A stretch of DNA of 64,000 nt, taken from NCBI GenBank assembly GCA_963514005.1, contig OY740816.1, positions 21,576,001-21,640,000 of the forward strand, given 5' to 3'. Source of the DNA: Raja brachyura. Lineage: Eukaryota. The translations under genes were made by a program, and so were the position numbers. Of the stretch, positions 15,369-56,597 are shown in pieces. How positions within the stretch are numbered: position 1 is the stretch's first letter; every line of letters begins with the position of its first letter. The notes under the pieces were generated by a model. That model did not search any database. It saw only the letters and a program-made list of their open reading frames with translations, and was not told the DNA's origin.

Positions 15369-15412
15369 GGGCCGCCATTTTGACTCCTCGGGGCCGCCAT
15401 TTTGACTCCTCG
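15369..15412. repeat. Perfect 22-bp tandem duplication; each unit carries a YY1 consensus (GCCGCCATTTTG)
   Basis: gggccgccattttgactcctcg occurs twice in a row. Confidence 0.85.
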
Positions 15413-15670: not shown

Positions 15671-16157
15671 CTAGCACCAGTCGTCCTCGTCGGTCTCACT
15701 GTAGGGTTCGTGCATCCCTTTCCTTGCGCCGGGCCCTCGCGTTTTGTTCGGGCCCAGGTTGTGGTAGTACCCGTTGGGCACCCGGCGCCCGTGTCTGGGG
15801 AGGGACACAGAGGAGGAGGACGACTGCGGCGCCCGACAAGTCCTCGGCGACCTCCCGGCACACGTCGCCATGGCCACCTCGAAGGTCAGAGTCTCCTCCC
15901 TCGACGCGACGTCGTAGTCGGCGCTCCGGTAATAGTCATCGTCGTGGCACCCCAGGTAAGGCTCGGACAGGTGGGAGCTGGGGGTGGACCACTGGCCGCT
16001 GCTCTGGCGGTGGAGCCGGGGGGAGCCGTTGCGAGGGGCGCTGCCTCTCTCCGTGCCGGGGGACCTGCCGCTGCTACCGTGCCTCTCGCCCCTGTGGTGC
16101 TCCAGGGGAGGGGGTGAGTACCGGCGTGGCACGGGGGTCGGTGTCCTGCCCTGTTGC

Positions 16158-16198
<41 letters not shown>

Positions 16199-16357
16199 TT
16201 GCTGCTGCGATGTGTTCATGGCCTTGCGGACCACGGGGGAGTAGGTGACATGAGGCCTAGGCGTGGAAGGAGTCTGGGGGAGTTGCCTACGTCCCCTCCT
16301 CGGTGTGCTGGTACCAGAAGTGGAAGGAACTGGACTCCCACTCACAGAACTACTGCC
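15671..16357 (-). CDS. CACNA1A: CACNA1A exon 47 coding part (long C-terminus with polyQ, SH3 ligand and PDZ ligand DDWC), 687 nt including stop
   Basis: ttcatctag|GGC AGT AGT TCT GTG...; [45 protein letters not shown]...Q19...RRVPNGYY...[20 protein letters not shown] (RIM-BP ligand) and the terminal DDWC (Mint1/RIM PDZ ligand) are Cav2 hallmarks. Confidence 0.97.
15680..16320. promoter_or_regulatory. CpG-island-like segment over the terminal coding exon
   Basis: Visibly GC- and CpG-rich against a CpG-poor background; not computed. Confidence 0.6.
16151..16207 (-). repeat. Coding CAG/CAA repeat encoding Q19
   Basis: (CAG)2(CAA)4(CAG)3(CAA)3(CAG)2(CAA)2 CAG CAA CAG, 57 nt counted directly from the sequence. 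Confidence 0.97.
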
Positions 16358-16359
16358 CT
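16350..16359 (-). promoter_or_regulatory. Tandem 3' splice acceptors AG|GGCAG|TAG (long versus short Cav2.1 C-terminus)
   Basis: The first AG (16359-16358) opens exon 47 in frame. The second AG (16354-16353) puts TAG (16352-16350) in frame right after exon 46. Confidence 0.9.
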
Positions 16360-19300
16360 AGATGAAAATCGAAACAAAGCAAATAAAAAATAAAAAATCA
16401 GGTGCAAAAAACACAGACAGGAACAAACCATCGGAGAAAGCAAAGAGGTAACACAGGGGAAAAGGAAGCAACGACCACAGAACCAACAAAAGTCAAAAAG
16501 GAAAGTAAAAAGAGAAATTGACGTCTGTAAGTCAAGGGGTTGAGAAAGAGCAGGCATTGTGCTTTAGATATCATGGGTTTAAAAGCGCATTGTAAGGCCA
16601 TACACATTAGACAACTTGGAGACTATGCTCGTAGTCGAACTTGGAAATGCTCGCACTGATGGAAGTCTGAAGCCTAAACCGAAAAGGTTGGGACTCCAGA
16701 GGCCCCATGGTGAATGAAAAGATGGGTTTAATGTTTACGGGGGTACACAAAAAGCTGGAGAAACTCGGCGGGTGCAGCAGCATCTAAGGAGCGAAGGAGA
16801 TAGGGGACGTTTAAGGTCGAGACCCTTCTTCAGACTCGACGGGCTTTGGCCCAGGCTGCTGAAATCTAGGGTGCGAAATTGACCAGGGGTAGGTAGGGTT
16901 AAATGCAAGTTGCATACTGTACCCTACTCTTGAAAAAAATATTATATTGAGTTTGAGTATTGAGGAATTGGTGCACACCATGTAGCGATCACAGTGTTAA
17001 TGATCAATAAATTATTTTCACACCAATGGCGCCCTCCCTCTGGGGAACTATGTGTCTAATAGTGATAGGAAACGATGGCCATTGTATCCTCAATAGCATC
17101 TTAACCTTCCCAGAAAAGTTAAAATAAGTGTCTCGACGCGTCACCCATTCCTTCTCTCCAGAGGTGCTGCCTGTCCCGCTGAGTTACTCCAGCTTTTTGT
17201 GTCTACAGTTTAAACCAGCATCTGCCGTTCCTTCCTACAACGTTAAATGGTTGCACCTCTTCTCAGAACTTGACTGACCAGTTGTGTGGAAAAAAATACT
17301 TCAGTTCTCTTATGCCTTTCTTGTCGATGTCAGGTTGCCCCTGAGTGTTGGAGTGTATATCAATTTCTGGAGTTTACTGTTGAAATACGATAGCTACTAG
17401 ATTCTGACAAATAGTAGGTATGTTTTATATAAATACTAACTGGGGTGTTGCTGACATCCCCAGAGAACTCCAGTGTTTTTTTGAAACAGTGATGTCGTTT
17501 TTAACCTGAGGATGCTGTCAGAGCCTGTGGTACGAACAGGGAAGTGCTCAGCTGAGATTTTTCTGTGTGTTTTGGAGCAGTTAGCAAAATCATTCAATTT
17601 TCTTGTTTTAGTTAAGGGCTTTAGCTGAAATACGGACAGGAATATGGTTGGTTGCAGTGAAGATTAGAAAATGATCACAAATTAAGCCACTCTGATCTCT
17701 TTGCTCTTAAGTTAGTGGAGGTTGTTGTTATTTTAGTTTATCAATTGCCCACTGCAACCCAATGTCTGAATGTCTGAGCCCAAGTTATCCAGTGTGTCTA
17801 GCACCAAACTTCCTTGTTCAATCAATAAACCTCCGCTTGCAACAAATCTCAAGGACTTCTCTATGATCGGTATAATCACGAGCTACATTTTCCATCAAAT
17901 GGATGGAATTGAATATCTATGGTATTGAGTATGTACAGTAATATCTAGGTGAAAAATGGACAAGGTATGCTTGTCCCACATTCGATCAAACACCTTTTTT
18001 CATTAGATGTATTCTATTGCTCTGGGATTATACTATACTAACAACCCCTACCTCCCGGAATGACAAGGGCAGTGGCAGGGAACATCACCTCCTGCAACCT
18101 AATGTTGAACCACCTACTGCTGAATGAATTACCATTGGAGATCTTAACAATTGCGGACTTTAAATCCAAATAAATGTCAATGTTTTTCAGGGATGCTGCC
18201 CAAACCGCAGAGTTACTCCAGCACTTTGTGTCTTTTTCATATGAATGTTATGCCTGGGTGAACTCTCGTTACTTCTGGCAGAGAGTAAGGAAACGGTAGC
18301 TAATGAAATCATGTCCCACTAGGGTACAAGCACTGTGCTGGGAAGCATTTGATAACCAAGATGTGTAATCTGTATGGCCTCTCAGCTCGTTAGAACGCAA
18401 CAACCAGAGAGAAATATGCTTCACAATATATTTTTTTTGTGTTTCAATAAAAGATGACCAGTAATCTTGCAATACATTCTTTCAATTTGGAAAAGCTACC
18501 TGCTTCGCACAAAATTTGCAAAGGTTAGTTGCCCCTTTGGTTCAGAACACCAACCCTGGCTTAAAGTAGATAATTCTGCTGGTTATTGCATGAAAAGTTA
18601 GTTAGCATCACTTTCAGAACAAAGCATTGTGCATGTCACCAGCAGCCACCTATCATGCCCCATAAGTAGACAAAAAATGCTGGAGAAACTCAGCGGGTGA
18701 GGCAGCATCCATGGAGAGAAGGAATTGTCGAGGTTTCGGGTCGAGACCCTTCTTCAGACCCGACACGTCGCCAATTCCTTCTCTCCATAAATGCTGCCTC
18801 ACCTGCTGAGATTCTCCAGCATTTTTTGTCTACCTTCGATTCTTCCAGCATCTGCAGTTCTTTTTTAAACATGCTCCATATGTTGACAGCCACATGCACT
18901 AATCCAATTGCTGGTCTATTTCTTTCTTCCTTCTGTAGATCAGTGGACCAGGGCCTGGTGGAGGATCTGTACTGCCATCTCACGAGCGGCTGATCAAAAA
19001 TGATGGCTCTCAGCAAAATTCTACTGTTGAAGCTTTGCAGTTTTGGCATGTCATTTTTAATCTTCCTGCCCCCACCAGATACATCAGATACAAAATGGTA
19101 ATTGTTCAATTGCACAAAATTTCTTTTGATTAGAACCATCGCCTGCTACCAGCTTCTTTCAGCGAGTGAGATTTGATTCACTTTTTACATTGGAACCAAT
19201 TTGCGAAAGCCTCCAGATCATTTATTTTTCTGTAATGGATATTTAGCATTCATCAGGAATTAAATAGGATGGCAATGCAGACTAAATCTAGAACAGTGAA

Positions 19301-20133: not shown

Positions 20134-20375
20134 CTGTCTATGGGGAACACACTCGCGCCCTGCACTCGGTGACCGAGACCACCGCCTGTCCCTTGATCGA
20201 GGTCTGCTGTACTCGTGCCGCTCCTGGGAATAACGCTCCTTGTCGGACGGCGTGTGGTGGTGGTGGTGGTGGTGATGGTGGTGCTTCCTGTCCTTGGTCC
20301 TTCCTCGCTCCCGGTCCTTCTCCTTCGGAGGGAGGTCGCCCGACTGTGTGGTCGTGCTGAGGTCTGTTCCGAGCC
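20134..20375 (-). CDS. CACNA1A: CACNA1A exon 46 (poly-His), 242 nt
   Basis: tgacatag|GG CTC GGA ACA GAC...AGA CAG|gtgggt; (G)[31 protein letters not shown]10[40 protein letters not shown]. Phase 1 to 0. Confidence 0.96.
20254..20283 (-). repeat. Coding CAC repeat encoding H10
   Basis: (CAC)2 CAT (CAC)7. Confidence 0.95.
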
Positions 20376-21607
20376 CTATGTCAATAAAAGCTGATCATTT
20401 AGGCAAAGAAAAAGAAATCGGAAAATGTTTAGAAAGGAAGACTTGCATATAGAGCAGCTTAATATTTATCCAAGTAACTAAATATTTCTAAACATGTTAA
20501 ATACAAAGAATGACATTGACAATTGACATGTAGACCACCTATTTTGCACAGTGATTTCCTAAGCCATCCACCTTTGACTACTGCACCTTGAGATAATGTC
20601 GGTGCCCAACATGTTGCTTAACACAGCTGTTATGACTTTTATTTATGGATGAGGGTGTAACTGGCGAAAGCCAGCACTTATCGACCATCCCAAGCAACCT
20701 GTGAGAAGTTGGCGTTGAGCCACCATCTTGAACCATTGGCGTCTATTTTGAAGGTAATCCCACAGTCACCCTTATCAATGGAGTTCCAGGATTCGAACCC
20801 AGTGAAGATGAAGTAAGAGCTACATTTTCCAACACAGTTTTACGTGTCTTGGAGGAAAACCAATGACTGGTGGTGACTGAAAGGAAGGGAGCAGATAATA
20901 GGCAATAGACAATAGGTGCAGGAGTAGGCCATACAGCCCTTCAAGCCAGCACCGCCATTCAATCTGATCACAATCAGTCATCCACAACCCGTTATTTTTA
21001 AACCGTGGCTCCTGGACTTGGAAAACCCCTAGTTCTGGATAATGAATTTGGCGGTACGTTTTTTCAAGATTTCATATCTTCTGACACATATTTCAGCTGA
21101 TGATCTGCCACCATTCTCTTCCAGAAGCTGCCTGATAAGCTGAGTGTCCAGTATTTCCATTTGCAGCATCTGCAGTTTGGTTTTTGCTTTTCAGTCATCA
21201 CCTGTAAATTCCTCTTCAAGTCACACGCCATTCTGACTTGGACATGTTTATCACCCTTCCTTCACTGTTGCTGGGTGGATATCCTGGAGGTCCCCTCCCC
21301 AAAGGCTCTTTGGAAGCTCTTTCAGCAGTGGGAGAGTTGCAGTTCAACAGGCACCCTCACCACCTCAAAGATAATTAGATATTGGTAATAGATGATGGTC
21401 TTGCAGAGAAAAAAAAATCCATGATAGTAAGATGCCATATAACATCTTATCCTCAGAGGTCATTATCCATAGGTCAATCTACTAAACGATAGTCGCACAG
21501 GAAGAATGTATTGTGCTTTGACTGTGTGCAATACAAATCTATTAGAATTATACCTGGGCTGAAAGGGTTAAATCACAAGGCAATAGACAAATCAGGTCAG
21601 TTTGGAA

Positions 21608-23487: not shown

Positions 23488-24058
23488 AATAGACAATAGG
23501 TGCAGGAGTAGGCCATTCAGCCCTTCACTGTGATCATGGCTAATCATCCACTATCAGCACCCTGTTCTTGCCTCCTCTCCATATCCCCTGACTCCGCTAT
23601 CTTTACGAGCTCCATCTAACTCTTGAAAGCATCCAGAGAATTGGCCTCCACTGCCTTCTGAGGCAGAGAATTCCACAGATTCACAACTGGGTGAAAAAGA
23701 TTTTCCTCATCTCCGTTCTAAATAGCCAACCCTTTATTCTTAAACTGTGGCCCCTGGTTTCAATACGATCCCCTCTCCTAAATTCCAGTGTATAGAAGCC
23801 CAGTCGCTCTATTCTTTTAACATATGACAGTCCAGCCATCCTGGGAATTAACCTTGTAAACCTACGCTGCACTCCCTCAATAGCAAGAATGTCCTTCCTC
23901 AAATTAGGGGACCAAAACTGCACACAATACTCCAGGTGAGGTCTCACTTGGGCCCTGTACAACTGCAGAAGGACCTCTTTGCTCCTATACTCAACTCCTC
24001 TTGTTATGAAGGCCAACATGCCATTCGCTTTCTTCACTGCCTGCTGCACCTGCATGCT
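23488..24058 (-). mobile_element. CR1 LINE 3' fragment
   Basis: ORF 23681-24055 reads QVQQAVKKANGMLAFI..LYRA.VRPHLEYCVQFWSP. Confidence 0.9.
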
Positions 24059-24894: not shown

Positions 24895-25087
24895 CTGTGT
24901 CCGCATCCGTGTATCGACTCAACGACCTCTCTGATGTCCTATGACCTCTCTCCCTGCGGCGATGGCTCCGTTGTGACTCCTCGGGAATGACCCTCTCCAG
25001 CGAGTAGTCATCCAGTCGTATGCCCTTGGGGCGCTGATGGCCCAGAGTGGACGCCGATCGCCTAATTGGGCTTGTGTCTTCGATGGT
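24895..25087 (-). CDS. CACNA1A: CACNA1A exon 45, 193 nt
   Basis: tcacatcag|ACC ATC GAA GAC...GAC ACA G|gtcagc; [64 protein letters not shown](G). Confidence 0.95.
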
Positions 25088-29357: not shown

Positions 29358-29393
29358 ACTAAGGTTATTCCCACGGTTCCGCACTTTTCTCCT
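29358..29393 (-). CDS. CACNA1A: CACNA1A exon 44, 36-nt mini-exon (a cassette exon in mammals)
   Basis: gataacag|AGG AGA AAA GTG CGG AAC CGT GGG AAT AAC CTT AGT|gtatgt = RRKVRNRGNNLS, compared with mammalian RRRGRPRGNNLS. Not shown in the ORF track. Confidence 0.92.
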
Positions 29394-34493: not shown

Positions 34494-34607
34494 TTGATTC
34501 CCTGCTGCCAGTCGTGGCATGGAGGATGCTCGACTCTGGCCTTCCATCGGGAGGTAATGGTCGCTGTCGGAGTAGGCGTCCCTCCCCATTTCTTGCATCT
34601 CCACAGC
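34494..34607 (-). CDS. CACNA1A: CACNA1A exon 43, 114 nt, frame-preserving (a cassette exon in mammals)
   Basis: tcttgcag|GCT GTG GAG ATG...AAT CAA|gtgagc; [38 protein letters not shown]. Phase 0 to 0. Confidence 0.95.
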
Positions 34608-40929: not shown

Positions 40930-41620
40930 AAAACATATAACCATATAACAATTACAGCACAGAAACAGGCCTTCTCGGCCCTTCCAGTCCGTGCCGACCA
41001 TTTATTTTCCCCTCGTCCCATCTACCTGCACTCAGACCATACCCCTCCATACCCTTCCCGTCCATATACCTATCCACTTTACTTTTAAATGTTAAAATCG
41101 ATCCTGCCGCCACCACTTCTGCTGGAAGATCATTCCACACAGCCACCACTCTCTGAGTAAAGAAGTTCCCCCTCATGTTACCCCTAAACTTCTGTCCCTT
41201 AATTCTCAAGTCATGCCCTCTTCCCTACCCTCAATGGGAAAAGCTTGTCCATGTCAACTCTGTCTATCCCTTTCATCATTTTAAAGACCTCAATCAAGTC
41301 CCCCCTTAACCTTCTGCGCTCCAAAGAATAAAGACCTAACTTGTTCAACCTTTCTCTGTAACTTAGTTGCTGGAACCCAGGCAACATTCTAGTAAATCTC
41401 CTCTGTACTCTCTCTATTTTGTTGACATCCTTCCTATAATTAGGCGACCAAAATTGTACACCATACTCCAGAATTGGTCTCACCAAAGCCTTGTACAATT
41501 TTAACATTACTTCCCTACTCCTATATTCAATGCTCTGATTTATAAAGGCCAGCACACCAAAAGCTTTCTTTACCACCCTATCTACATGTGATTGCACCTT
41601 CAGGGAACTATGCACAGTTA
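40930..41620 (-). mobile_element. CR1 LINE 3' fragment (second subfamily)
   Basis: ORFs 41211-41681 and 40952-41209 contain LKLYKALVRPILEYGVQFWSP and NFFTQRVVAVWN. Confidence 0.9.
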
Positions 41621-42208
41621 TGTCCCTGTCCCACTTAGGAAACCTGAACGGAAACCTCTGGAGACTTTGCACCCCACCCAAGGTTTCCGTGCGGTTCCCG
41701 GAGGTTTTTGTCGGTCTCCCTAATGGTCGAAAGTGGTTTCCGTTTCTTCTATGTTCCGGCGATTACTTCACAAAATTCAAAACTGGCCGCAACTAAAAAT
41801 AGGTTTCCGTTTTAAAAATCGGTAATTTTTTAGTCGAAGCCGGTTGCGATGCTAGTTGAAGGTGGTTGCCGGAGGTTGCAGGTAGTGGAAGGTAAGACTT
41901 TTTTTCACCCAGTTTTATTCCACCAGGGAGGTCTTACCTTCCACTACCTGCAACCTCCGGCAACCACCTTCAACTAGCATCGCAACTGCCTTCGATTAAA
42001 AAATTACCGATTTTTAAAACGGAAACCTATTTTTAGTCGCGGCCGGTTTTGAATTTTTTGAAATAATCGCCGGGACATAGAATAAGCGGAAACCACTTTC
42101 GACCATTAGGGAGACTGACAAAAACCTCCGGGAACCGCACGGAAACCTTGGGTGGGGCACAAAGTCTCCAGAGGTTTCCGTTCAGGTTTCCTAAGTGGGA
42201 CAGGGACA
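41621..42208. mobile_element. 588-bp fold-back MITE (278-bp arms, 32-nt spacer)
   Basis: 41621-41898 is the near-perfect reverse complement of 41931-42208. The termini are tgtccctgtcccactt/aagtgggacagggaca, flanked by TTA and TAA. Confidence 0.9.
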
Positions 42209-42580: not shown

Positions 42581-42938
42581 NNNNNNNNNNNNNNNNNNNN
42601 NNNNNNNNNNNNNNNNNNNNNNNNNNNNNNNNNNNNNNNNNNNNNNNNNNNNNNNNNNNNNNNNNNNNNNNNNNNNNNNNNNNNNNNNNNNNNNNNNNNN
42701 NNNNNNNNNNNNNNNNNNNNNNNNNNNNNNNNNNNNNNNNNNNNNNNNNNNNNNNNNNNNNNNNNNNNNNNNNNNNNNNNNNNNNNNNNNNNNNNNNNNN
42801 NNNNNNNNNNNNNNNNNNNNNNNNNNNNNNNNNNNNNNNNNNNNNNNNNNNNNNNNNNNNNNNNNNNNNNNNNNNNNNNNNNNNNNNNNNNNNNNNNNNN
42901 NNNNNNNNNNNNNNNNNNNNNNNNNNNNNNNNNNNNNN
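42581..42938. other. Assembly gap (358 N) in intron 42
   Basis: Run of N. Confidence 1.
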
Positions 42939-44039: not shown

Positions 44040-44945
44040 AACATAGAAAATAGGTGCAGGAGTAGGCCATTCGGCCCTTCGAGCCTGCACCGCCATTCAA
44101 TATGATCATGGCTGATCATCCAACTCAGTATCCTGTACCTGCCTTCTTTCCATACCCCCTGAATCCTTTAGCCACAAGGGCCACATCTAATTCCCTCTTA
44201 AATATAGCCAATGAACTGGCCTCAACAACATTCTGTGGCAGAGCATTCCACAGGTTCACCACTCTCTGTGTGAAGAATGATTTTCTCATCTCGGTCCTAA
44301 AAGACTTCCCCCTTATCCTTGTGACCACTTGTTCTTGTCTTCCCCAATATCGGGAACAATCTTCCTACATCTAGCCTGTCCAACCCCTTAAGAATTTTGT
44401 AAGTCTCTATAAGATCCCCCCTCAATCTTCTAAATTCCAGCGAGTACAAGTCGAGACTATCCAGTCTTTCTTCATATGGAAGTCCTGGCATCCCAGGAAT
44501 CAGTCTGGTGAACCTTCTCTGTACTCCCTCTATGGCAAGAATGTCTTTCCTCAGATTAGGAGACCAAAACTGTACGCAATACTCCGGGTGTGGCCTGACC
44601 AAGACCCTGTACAACTGCAAGAGCAGTAGAACCTCCCTGCTCTTGTACTCAAATCCTTTTGCTATGAATGCCAACATACCATTCGCTTTCTTCACTGCCT
44701 GCTGCACCTGCATGCCTACTTTCAATGACTGGTGTACCATGACACCCAGGTCGCGCTGCATCTCCCCTTTTCCTAATCAGCCACCATTCAGATAATAGTC
44801 TACTTTCCTGTTTTTGCCTCCAAAGTGGACAACCTCACATTTATCCACATTATACTGCATCTGCCATGCATTTGCCCACTCACCCAGCCTATCCAAGTCA
44901 CCTAGCAGCCTCCTAGCATCCTCCTCACAGCTAACACCGCCCTCC
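44040..44945 (-). mobile_element. CR1 LINE 3' fragment (~0.9 kb)
   Basis: ORFs 44125-44989 contain LDRLGEWANAWQMQYNVDKCEVVHFG and QRDLGVMVH. Confidence 0.9.
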
Positions 44946-46114: not shown

Positions 46115-46905
46115 ACATAGGAGTCACACAGCGTGGAAATAGGCCCTTCAACCCAACTTGCCCACACCGACCAACACGTATGTCCCATCTCCACTAACCC
46201 CACCTGCCTGCGTTTGGCCCATATCAATAGACAATAGTCAATAGGTGCAGGAGTAGAGGCCATTCGGCCCTTCGAGCCAGCACCGCCATTCAATGCGATC
46301 ATGGCTGATCATCCACAATCAGTACCCCGTTCCTGCCTTCTCCCCCCATATCCCATGATTCCGCTATTTTTAAGAGCCCTATCTAGCTCTCTCTTGAAAG
46401 CGTCCAGAGAACCGGCCTCCACCGCCCTCTGAGGCAGAGAATTCCACAGACTCACCACTCACTGAAAAAAAGTGTTTCCTCGTCTCCGTTCTAAATGGCT
46501 TACTCCTTATTCTTAAACTGTGGCCCCTGGTTCTGGACTCCCCCAACATCGGGAACATGTTTCCTGCCTCTAGCGTGTCCAAACCCTTAACTATCTTATA
46601 TGTTTCAATAAGATCCCCTCTCATCCTTCTGAACTCCAGAGTGTACAAGCCCAGCTGCTCCATTCTCTCAGCATATGACAGTCCCGCCATTCCGGGAATT
46701 AACCTTGTAAACCTACGCTGCACTCCCTCAATAGCAAGAATGTCCTTCCTCAAATTAGGGGACCAAAACTGCACACGATACTCCAGGTGTGGTCTCACTC
46801 GGGCCCTGTACAACTGCAGAAGGACCTCTTTGACCCGATATTCCTCTAAGCATGTCCTATCCATGTACCTGTCCAAAAGTTTCTTAAATATAGTGATAGC
46901 ACCAG
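46115..46905 (-). mobile_element. Nested CR1 fragments (a younger CR1 at 46225-46831 inside an older CR1 tail)
   Basis: ORF 46379-46876 fuses two CR1 subfamily segments, and the older tail resumes on both sides. Confidence 0.8.
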
Positions 46906-47396
46906 CAACATTGCGATAGTAACTGCAAGCTCCATCACTTTACTCCTTATTTACTGTACTCCTGGCTTATTTTCTCTCAAACATGCCCATCAACACCCCT
47001 TTGATTCGTAGTGCCGGTAATGTACACTAAAGGGCTTGATCACATCACAGTCACTGAGCACAAGGGATTGTCTTCAATCTACACCGGATCACATAAGGAG
47101 TTGGAAACAGGAAAATCTATACCAGAAGACCTCCGGTATAGTTGTGGGCAAGTTTTTTTGTTTGAGCTCAGAGATGTTGTCCTGTTTCCTTGATCAGCCA
47201 TGATCACATTGTATGGCGGTGCTGGCTCGAAGGGCCGAATGCACCTATTGTCTATTCCTTATTACTGACTGCAAATTCTGCGCAACAGAGGCCAGTCCAT
47301 TCAACGGCACTCGATATGAGCTGGTTTCAAACTCGGTTTCAATGTGGATGACCATTCATTGCCGAACACAAAACAAATAGCCACCAGACACTAGAG

Positions 47397-47662: not shown

Positions 47663-47798
47663 CTGAGAGTTTGGCCGAATGTCTTCTATATCCTCTGATC
47701 GACCTCTTTCAGGACTCCACGCCCCTGTCTGCTGAAACATTTTTTGAGCTCGATCGGTCACCCAAGATTGGCTCTCCTTCATAATCCCATCTTGTGGT
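47663..47798 (-). CDS. CACNA1A: CACNA1A exon 42 (CBD region), 136 nt
   Basis: ctgcccaaag|A CCA CAA GAT...TCT CAG|gtacag; [45 protein letters not shown]. The acceptor was chosen by phase (AAG), so the 5' boundary is less certain. Confidence 0.88.
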
Positions 47799-50380: not shown

Positions 50381-50490
50381 AGGGCGTCCCCAGTCACGAG
50401 CTGCTGCTCCGGCAAGGCGCTCTGCCCCGGCTCCATCTCCTGGGTAGGTGACGCTGGTTCCATGCGCTGAAATAGTAATGGCGTTCGGTT
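50381..50490 (-). CDS. CACNA1A: CACNA1A exon 41, 110 nt
   Basis: ctcacacag|AAC CGA ACG CCA...GCC CT|gtaagt; [36 protein letters not shown](L). Phase 0 to 2. Confidence 0.93.
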
Positions 50491-54384: not shown

Positions 54385-54485
54385 CTGCTCCTCGTGGAGT
54401 AACTGGAGTTTTTTGGCTTTGCTCTGCCGGTAGTATTCCATGATCATCATGGCTGCGTAGATCTTCCCTACGGTCAGATCCGTTG
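54385..54485 (-). CDS. CACNA1A: CACNA1A exon 40 (IQ-like calmodulin-binding motif), 101 nt
   Basis: ctactgcag|CA ACG GAT CTG...GAG CAG|gtacta; (S)[33 protein letters not shown]. The IM-type IQ motif is typical of Cav2.1. Confidence 0.97.
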
Positions 54486-55649: not shown

Positions 55650-55757
55650 ATTTATGAGGTGTGACCAACAGATCGATTGTTTTTTGGGAGAGGTTGGGCC
55701 AAATGGACATCATCTCTTTCCTCAACTCACGGTCCATTTGGTGCTTGTCAGCCCCTC
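55650..55757 (-). CDS. CACNA1A: CACNA1A exon 39, 108 nt
   Basis: tttactag|GA GGG GCT GAC AAG...CAT AAA T|gtaagt; (G)[35 protein letters not shown](S). Phase 1 to 1. Confidence 0.96.

Positions 55758-56447: not shown

Positions 56448-56597
<150 letters not shown>

What the first reader, a model, noticed from the sequence alone, without database searches (positions are those of the whole stretch)
16151..16207. SCA6-position polyglutamine (Q19) in a cartilaginous fish, encoded by a CAA-interrupted ladder
Seen: 19 Gln directly after [12 protein letters not shown], encoded as (CAG)2(CAA)4(CAG)3(CAA)3(CAG)2(CAA)2 CAG CAA CAG, with no pure CAG run longer than 3. Known: human Cav2.1 carries its polyQ after YSPVIRKAGGSGPP. 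Human alleles up to 18 are normal, 19 is intermediate and 20 or more cause SCA6, while mouse lacks a comparable tract. Inference: either the tract is ancestral to jawed vertebrates and was lost repeatedly, or the site is a convergent expansion hotspot. The mixed codons suggest an old tract selected at the protein level and tolerated at the human threshold length.
Basis: partly seen in the sequence, partly recalled or inferred. Interest (0 to 1): 0.75.

Follow-up and report, generated by a model that had tools for sequence, protein, structure and literature searches.

The report
Ray's independent long glutamine tract, CACNA1A
A ray, probably a skate, has a run of 19 glutamines in its P/Q-type calcium channel at the same spot where a slightly longer run causes the human ataxia SCA6; its shark and ray relatives have only two or three there, so the run grew separately in this lineage and is not an ancient shared trait.

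Summary
The tract is real: 19 Gln at 16151-16207 (minus strand), with the codons as stated. The gene is CACNA1A (Cav2.1) of a batoid, probably a skate (tree 100/100 batoid, 94/94 with Rhinoraja). The tract lies in exon 47, between the same anchors as the human SCA6 tract. It is not ancestral: 6 of 6 sharks have Q2 and 5 of 5 other rays Q3, and against Pristis it is a clean 16-residue insertion. Long tracts at this site appear separately in placental mammals (Q4-11) and in Anolis sagrei (Q9 in a 17-Gln patch), all on a short Gln/Pro seed. The human AG|GGCAG|TAG splice switch that decides whether the tract is translated is conserved. Selection is not shown: codon order is random-like and the CAA share does not differ significantly from the rest of the tail. 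Tolerance of Q19 is unsurprising, since human 19 is only intermediate and Q30 knock-in mice show no motor deficit. Length could not be checked in reads, and no other skate exon 47 or chimaera was in hand. Verdict: a real convergent expansion, not found in ten library searches, most likely near-neutral slippage in a disordered linker.

The parts
16151..16207 (-). Q19 tract, 9 CAG and 10 CAA codons, longest CAG run 3, longest CAA run 4
   Evidence: 16-residue insertion against Pristis, Hypanus and Narcine
15671..16357 (-). CACNA1A last coding exon (human exon 47), long form, 228 aa plus stop; carries RQLPQTP upstream of the tract and the terminal DDWC
   Evidence: 197 of 207 aligned residues identical to Pristis, 136 of 223 to human
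16350..16360 (-). Tandem acceptor TAG|GGCAG|TAG. The upstream acceptor adds GGCAG and opens the tract's frame; the downstream acceptor puts TAG straight after exon 46
   Evidence: long 603 aa ending DDWC, short 375 aa ending HRQ; human switch described in PMC2841749
20134..20390 (-). Exon 46 equivalent, ending in phase 0 at ...CAG|GT; holds a His10 run at 20283-20254
24895..25087 (-). Exon 45 equivalent
29358..29393 (-). 36-nt optional exon (human exon 44 equivalent; exon number recalled), RRKVRNRGNNLS
   Evidence: present in some shark and ray models and absent in others
34494..34607 (-). Upstream C-tail exon
47663..47798 (-). Upstream C-tail exon
50381..50490 (-). Upstream C-tail exon
54385..54485 (-). 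IQ-region exon holding MIMEYY, the motif recalled as the start of human alpha1ACT
   Evidence: the label is recalled and was not tested
55650..55757 (-). Upstream C-tail exon
56465..56570 (-). Most upstream CACNA1A exon mapped in the window

Best explanation
A lineage-specific polyglutamine expansion in exon 47 of a skate-like batoid's CACNA1A, convergent with the placental (SCA6) tract. Shown: elasmobranch relatives carry a Q2-3 seed at this position, and 16 Gln codons were added after the split from the other sampled rays. Shown from sequence: the tract is translated only when the upstream GGCAG acceptor is used, as in humans. Inferred: it grew by replication slippage of CAG, CAA and mixed blocks, in a low-complexity linker between the PxxP motif and the terminal DDWC that tolerates insertions. 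Inferred: the mixed codons (no pure run over 4) now damp further slippage, and the tract is close to neutral. It lengthens a flexible spacer and is below any length that harms the animal within its lifespan.
For: 6 of 6 shark species Q2 and 5 of 5 other batoids Q3, with near-identical flanks. Window nested in batoids 100/100 and inside the alpha-1A clade 96/98. Of 34 hand-picked non-placental entries only 2 have a run of 4 or more (coelacanth Q5, Anolis sagrei Q9); 12 of 15 placentals have Q4-11. The same gap holds polyPro in Gekko and Dipodomys and varies from 10 to 45 residues, so it tolerates indels. Codon order is random-like. In mouse calyx, deleting the exon-47-type tail left presynaptic Ca current unchanged (PMC5548488 passages). 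Two knock-in lines at Q28-30 were healthy or had no motor impairment.
Against: Inserted vertebrate polyQ are usually CAG-rich (about 3:1), whereas this one is 53% CAA. That fits the proposal that CAA interruptions fix a useful length (PMC7247214, PMC8763233 passages; neither passage set mentions cartilaginous fishes). All 4 laid runs, from 4 organisms, have contig ends inside this repeat, a hint that a long tract is shared by several related species and so has persisted. One Q28 knock-in line and a Q27 transgenic did show motor deficits (PMC7990448 table). Neutrality itself was not tested. One skate-like sequence carries the whole inference on timing.
Confidence: 0.72

Rival explanations
1. 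Convergent expansion maintained by selection. The skate tract tunes the long Cav2.1 tail or an alpha1ACT-like product (spacing or binding of active-zone or nuclear partners), and CAA substitutions were kept because they lock the length.
For: High CAA share for an inserted tract (PMC7247214, PMC8763233). Gln rather than another residue expanded at this site in three lineages, with Q5 in coelacanth. Contig ends inside the repeat in 4 of 4 laid runs. The splice switch and DDWC end are conserved.
Against: CAA excess over the gene's own background is not significant (P=0.23). Gln seeds already sit there in most lineages, so Gln is what slippage would amplify. Anoles gain amino-acid repeats proteome-wide (PMC4751654 abstract), which weakens that case. 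Eleven other elasmobranchs manage with Q2-3.
Confidence: 0.2
2. A long tract is ancestral to jawed vertebrates and was shortened repeatedly.
For: The position is shared with the human tract, and short Gln runs occur there in sharks, rays, lungfish, coelacanth, salamanders and turtles.
Against: It needs separate contractions in sharks, other rays, ray-finned fishes, lungfish, amphibians, turtles, geckos, monotremes and marsupials, against three gains. Only the Q2-3 seed looks ancestral.
Confidence: 0.02
3. The length of 19 is an assembly error, or one allele of a polymorphic tract.
For: No laid contig spans the repeat. In one run the contig ends only 18 letters into the tract, as two differing haplotypes would cause (inference).
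Against: The frame is open through the tract to DDWC, and the irregular codon mix is not what homopolymer or stutter errors give. Flanking contigs of the best run match the window with 0 differences on both sides (records 1 and 2). A 9-nt Q3 would not break contigs. Polymorphism of a few codons would not change the main conclusion.
Confidence: 0.06

Closest known systems
Human CACNA1A exon 47 CAG tract (SCA6)
   Same: Orthologous gene, same exon, same gap between YSPV[IV]RK and the GR...PRRY anchor, and the same GGCAG/TAG acceptor switch. The length equals the human intermediate allele (PMC11849522, PMC4329791).
   Different: Independent origin. 10 of 19 codons are CAA, whereas human normal and disease alleles are uninterrupted CAG (PMC7990448 table). 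Flanks are MNTS/GRTP instead of GSGPP/AVARP. The two human database entries have Q11. No disease is known here.
CACNA1A of other rays (Pristis, Mobula, Hypanus, Narcine) and sharks
   Same: 84-95% identity in exon 47 outside gaps for the four compared; near-identical flanks.
   Different: Q3 in rays and Q2 in sharks, against Q19.
Anolis sagrei CACNA1A-like XP_060615822.1
   Same: Gln-rich expansion in the same gap: run of 9, 17 Gln in 45 residues.
   Different: Impure (Leu, Ala), followed by polyPro; in a genus known for many gained repeats (PMC4751654 abstract); two geckos lack it.
'Inserted' (length-unstable) polyQ class of Mier and Andrade-Navarro 2020 (PMC7247214)
   Same: Gln columns against gaps in orthologs; long protein; Pro-rich downstream context.
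   Different: CAA-rich, whereas inserted tracts of amniotes are the most CAG-rich class.

Membership tests
CACNA1A (Cav2.1) ortholog | Groups with alpha-1A and apart from alpha-1B and alpha-1E | tested here: met
   C-tail tree of 32 rows: alpha-1A clade 96/98, elasmobranch 100/99, batoid 100/100
CACNA1A (Cav2.1) ortholog | Collinear C-tail exons with AG/GT borders giving one open frame to DDWC | tested here: met
   9 exons, 603 aa open
CACNA1A (Cav2.1) ortholog | Pore domains and conserved synteny | not testable with these tools
   Outside the window; no whole genome is held
SCA6-type tract | Lies in exon 47 at the position of the human tract | tested here: met
   Same inter-anchor gap. Codon-level homology of the seed Gln cannot be shown, because the gap is indel-rich.
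SCA6-type tract | Translated only with the 5-nt GGCAG insertion | tested here: met
   From sequence. A Rhinoraja gene model ends at HRQ (short form); 15 of 18 elasmobranch entries carry the long form. Use in transcripts is only hinted.
SCA6-type tract | Uninterrupted CAG repeat | tested here: not met
   9 CAG, 10 CAA, longest CAG run 3
SCA6-type tract | Common descent with the human long tract | tested here: not met
   Intervening lineages have Q0-3, coelacanth Q5
SCA6-type tract | Length at or above the pathogenic threshold (20-21 or more) | tested here: not met
   19 is the human intermediate zone (PMC11849522 abstract and first part; PMC4329791 passages)
SCA6-type tract | Length polymorphism, aggregation, Purkinje-cell toxicity | not testable with these tools
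   The read tool skips the repeat; no assay possible
Bicistronic alpha1ACT | IRES upstream of the internal Met and a separate C-tail product | not tested
   The MIMEYY motif is present, 519 aa from the stop; its role as the start is recalled, and IRES activity was not examined

The most novel reading that the evidence does not exclude
Skates independently evolved, and keep by selection, a CAA-locked polyQ at the SCA6 site, and some species or alleles reach 20 or more Gln. They would then be wild vertebrates expressing a disease-length Cav2.1/alpha1ACT tail in the cerebellum without harm, a natural test of whether SCA6 toxicity needs glutamine number alone, pure-CAG RNA, or the mammalian flanks.
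Probability: 0.15. Interest if true: 0.7.

Novelty: new variant of a known kind. Interest (0 to 1): 0.4.

Why it matters
It is a counter-example to the published generalisation that disease polyQ tracts are absent or very short outside mammals and longest in humans (bioRxiv 10.1101/2023.04.05.535742). Q19 is longer than every tract among the 319 database entries that carried the anchor (longest Q11, human). It shows that the SCA6 site has expanded at least three times from an old Q2-3 seed, and that the splice switch governing its translation is shared by cartilaginous fishes and humans. It offers a natural, CAA-interrupted, threshold-length allele in a non-mammalian flank for SCA6 context experiments. 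It shows no new mechanism, and lineage-specific homorepeat growth is common.

Tried and rejected
Whole genome: none is held, so no synteny and no genome-wide count of how common long CAA-rich tracts are in this species. Runs: no RNA holder listed. Laying 4 of the 20 listed runs gave no tract length, since the repeat is skipped and no contig spans it; joints at the exon 46/47 junction were not displayed because the table was crowded by intronic repeats. Run X15, labelled 'RNA? (probably DNA)', had no cover in several unique intron bins; I do not count that as evidence. Another skate's exon 47 and any chimaera sequence were not found: three protein searches (only 120 of 289, 120 of 1051 and 101 of 101 hits were listed), the representatives search (53 hits) and two cluster look-ups (11 of 26 members of the shark cluster were never listed). 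The only skate entry, Rhinoraja X9, is the short form. Three of 18 elasmobranch entries lacked exon 47 and were left out of the Q counts. A 'ladder' or block pattern in the codons was rejected: runs test P=0.32. RNA hairpin: none of note (-5.5 kcal/mol, z -1.36); no pure-CAG control was folded. Paralog (alpha-1B, alpha-1E) was rejected by tree. Earlier scan findings: none returned. No structure or complex job was run, as the region is low-complexity. Supplements of the bioRxiv repeat survey are closed; its OrthoDB tables might already list a skate value.

Full report
Observation. It lies in a 228-codon frame from 16357 that ends DEDDWC-stop. No other run of five or more Gln codons exists in the window.

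Gene and organism. tblastn with database channels maps nine collinear exons on the minus strand from 56570 to 15671. With AG/GT borders they give one open frame of 603 aa. A maximum-likelihood tree of this tail with 31 hand-picked database proteins puts the window inside the alpha-1A clade (96/98), inside elasmobranchs (100/99) and inside batoids (100/100), next to the skate Rhinoraja (94/94, just under the starred level; that entry is a short isoform). The gene is therefore CACNA1A of a ray, probably a skate. XP_072925446, whose species name was cut off in the listing, is counted as a ray because it groups with Mobula and Hypanus (99/92).

Is the site the SCA6 site? Yes at the level of anchors. 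The human entries read YSPVIRK-AGGSGPP-Q11-AVARP-GRAATSGPRRY, and the window reads [13 protein letters not shown]19[11 protein letters not shown]. The gap between the anchors is indel-rich (10 to 45 residues), so individual Gln codons cannot be homologised between fishes and mammals.

Ancestral or convergent? Of 18 elasmobranch entries examined, 15 carry exon 47: 8 shark entries (6 species) all have Q2, and 7 ray entries (5 species) all have Q3; 3 entries lack the exon. Against Pristis the window differs by a clean 16-Gln insertion, with 197 of 207 other aligned residues identical. In a hand-picked panel of 49 orthologous entries: lungfish Q2, coelacanth Q5, sturgeon, paddlefish, bowfin and four teleosts Q0-2, three salamanders Q1-2, four turtles Q2-3, two geckos Q0-1, one bird Q0, platypus Q3, two marsupials Q1-2. 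Anolis sagrei has Q9 within a 17-Gln patch. 12 of 15 placentals have Q4-11, while the three non-squirrel rodents (degu, chinchilla, kangaroo rat) have Q1-2. Among all 319 of 431 stored proteins that carried the anchor (redundant isoforms and some alpha-1E paralogs included), the longest run was Q11. The simplest reading is a short Gln/Pro seed in the jawed-vertebrate ancestor and three separate expansions: placentals, an anole and this ray. No chimaera and no second skate exon 47 were available, so the gain is dated only to after the split from the other sampled rays.

Splice switch. Exon 46 ends in phase 0 (…CAG|GT at 20134) and the acceptor reads TAG|GGCAG|TAG. The upstream acceptor gives the 603-aa form with the tract, and the downstream one stops at once (375 aa, ending HRQ). 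This is the human arrangement, in which a 5-nt GGCAG insertion at the intron 46/exon 47 junction makes the extended tail (PMC2841749, passages). A Rhinoraja model ends at HRQ, so both forms appear in elasmobranch annotation. One weak hint of use: in run X15 of a related organism a single contig covers exon 46 plus one further base that matches the long form's first base (G) but not the short form's (T). Its remaining 178 letters would end at 16179, the point where two DNA contigs also end. The joint itself was not displayed, so this remains a hint.

Reads. The tool skips the repeat, so length is unverified. Flanking contigs of the best run match the window with no differences. In 4 of 4 laid runs (4 organisms, out of 20 runs listed) no listed contig spans the tract, and contigs end 18 to 35 letters inside it, whereas one X15 contig spans the His10 repeat without a gap. 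A 9-nt Q3 would not break contigs, so a long tract is probably shared by these relatives. This is inference from coordinates, not from letters.

Do the codons show age or selection? Not on their own. Nine runs are seen against 10.5 expected from shuffles (P=0.32), and a longest CAG run of 3 or less occurs in 64% of shuffles. CAA is 10 of 19 in the tract and 9 of 29 in the rest of the tail (Fisher P=0.23). A half-CAA inserted tract is thus atypical, but slippage of CAA and of mixed blocks explains it without selection (inference). The transcript region forms no notable hairpin.

Is tolerance surprising? Human normal alleles are 4-18, 19 is intermediate and 20-33 are expanded (PMC4329791, passages). 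A 2025 cohort puts 19-20 in an intermediate zone and full penetrance at 23 or more (PMC11849522, abstract and first of four parts). Mouse lacks the tract, and Q13/Q28 knock-ins were viable and healthy (PMC3461215, passages). A Q30 knock-in had no motor impairment, although one Q28 knock-in and a Q27 transgenic did show deficits (PMC7990448, table passage). Removing the exon-47-type tail did not change presynaptic current at the mouse calyx (PMC5548488, passages), and chicken is reported to lack the exon (PMC7456537, passages). Q19 in a fish is therefore not paradoxical.

Mechanism. Shown: orthology, position, 16-codon gain, dependence on the GGCAG acceptor. Inferred: growth by slippage from a Q3 seed in a disordered linker between the RQLPQTP (PxxP) motif and the terminal DDWC ligand, damping by mixed codons, and near-neutral effect (0.72). 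Selection for a tuned length is the main rival (0.2). An ancestral long tract (0.02) and a wrong length (0.06) are unlikely.

Novelty. Ten library searches listed no paper on a skate, ray or lizard CACNA1A polyQ; the library lacks most subscription journals. A vertebrate survey states that such repeats are absent or very short in non-mammals (bioRxiv 10.1101/2023.04.05.535742, whole text; supplements not seen), and this tract contradicts that for CACNA1A at the protein level. PMC10676324 (passages) covers paralogs only. Anoles are known to gain many repeats (PMC4751654, abstract), which lowers the weight of that third case. The tract may well be present, unremarked, in public skate annotations; I could not check this. 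Verdict: a new variant of a known kind, interest 0.4.

Noticed in passing
window 20254-20283 (-): His10 run in exon 46, nearly pure CAC (9 CAC, 1 CAT). Sharks have H8 (Stegostoma H5), other rays H9-11, coelacanth H11. A pure-codon repeat of modest variation beside a mixed-codon one.
   Followed up: partly
window 20376-20392 (-): Two acceptors 15 nt apart at exon 46; the upstream one adds AFIDI. Both forms occur in shark and ray gene models, and contig 16 of run X15 extends to the upstream one.
   Followed up: partly
window 29358-29393 (-): 36-nt optional exon RRKVRNRGNNLS, included in some elasmobranch models and skipped in others.
   Followed up: partly
P0334 (XP_060615822.1, Anolis sagrei): Independent Gln-rich expansion (17 Gln, run of 9) at the SCA6 site, plus polyHis and polyGly runs in the same exon.
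   Followed up: partly
window 15369-15412: Exact 22-bp tandem duplication in the presumed 3' UTR; each copy holds GCCGCCATTTT, recalled as a YY1-type motif.
   Followed up: no
window 16104: A/G difference at half depth in run X1, 47 bases from the tract: a likely heterozygous site; G in the other three runs.
   Followed up: no
window 42581-42938: Run of 358 N (assembly gap) inside an intron of the gene.
   Followed up: no
window 41214-41762, 44300-44776, 46382-46939, 23684-24058 (-): Several fragments of one retroposon reverse-transcriptase tail (…RPHLEYCVQFW…; CR1-like label recalled) in introns and downstream.
   Followed up: no
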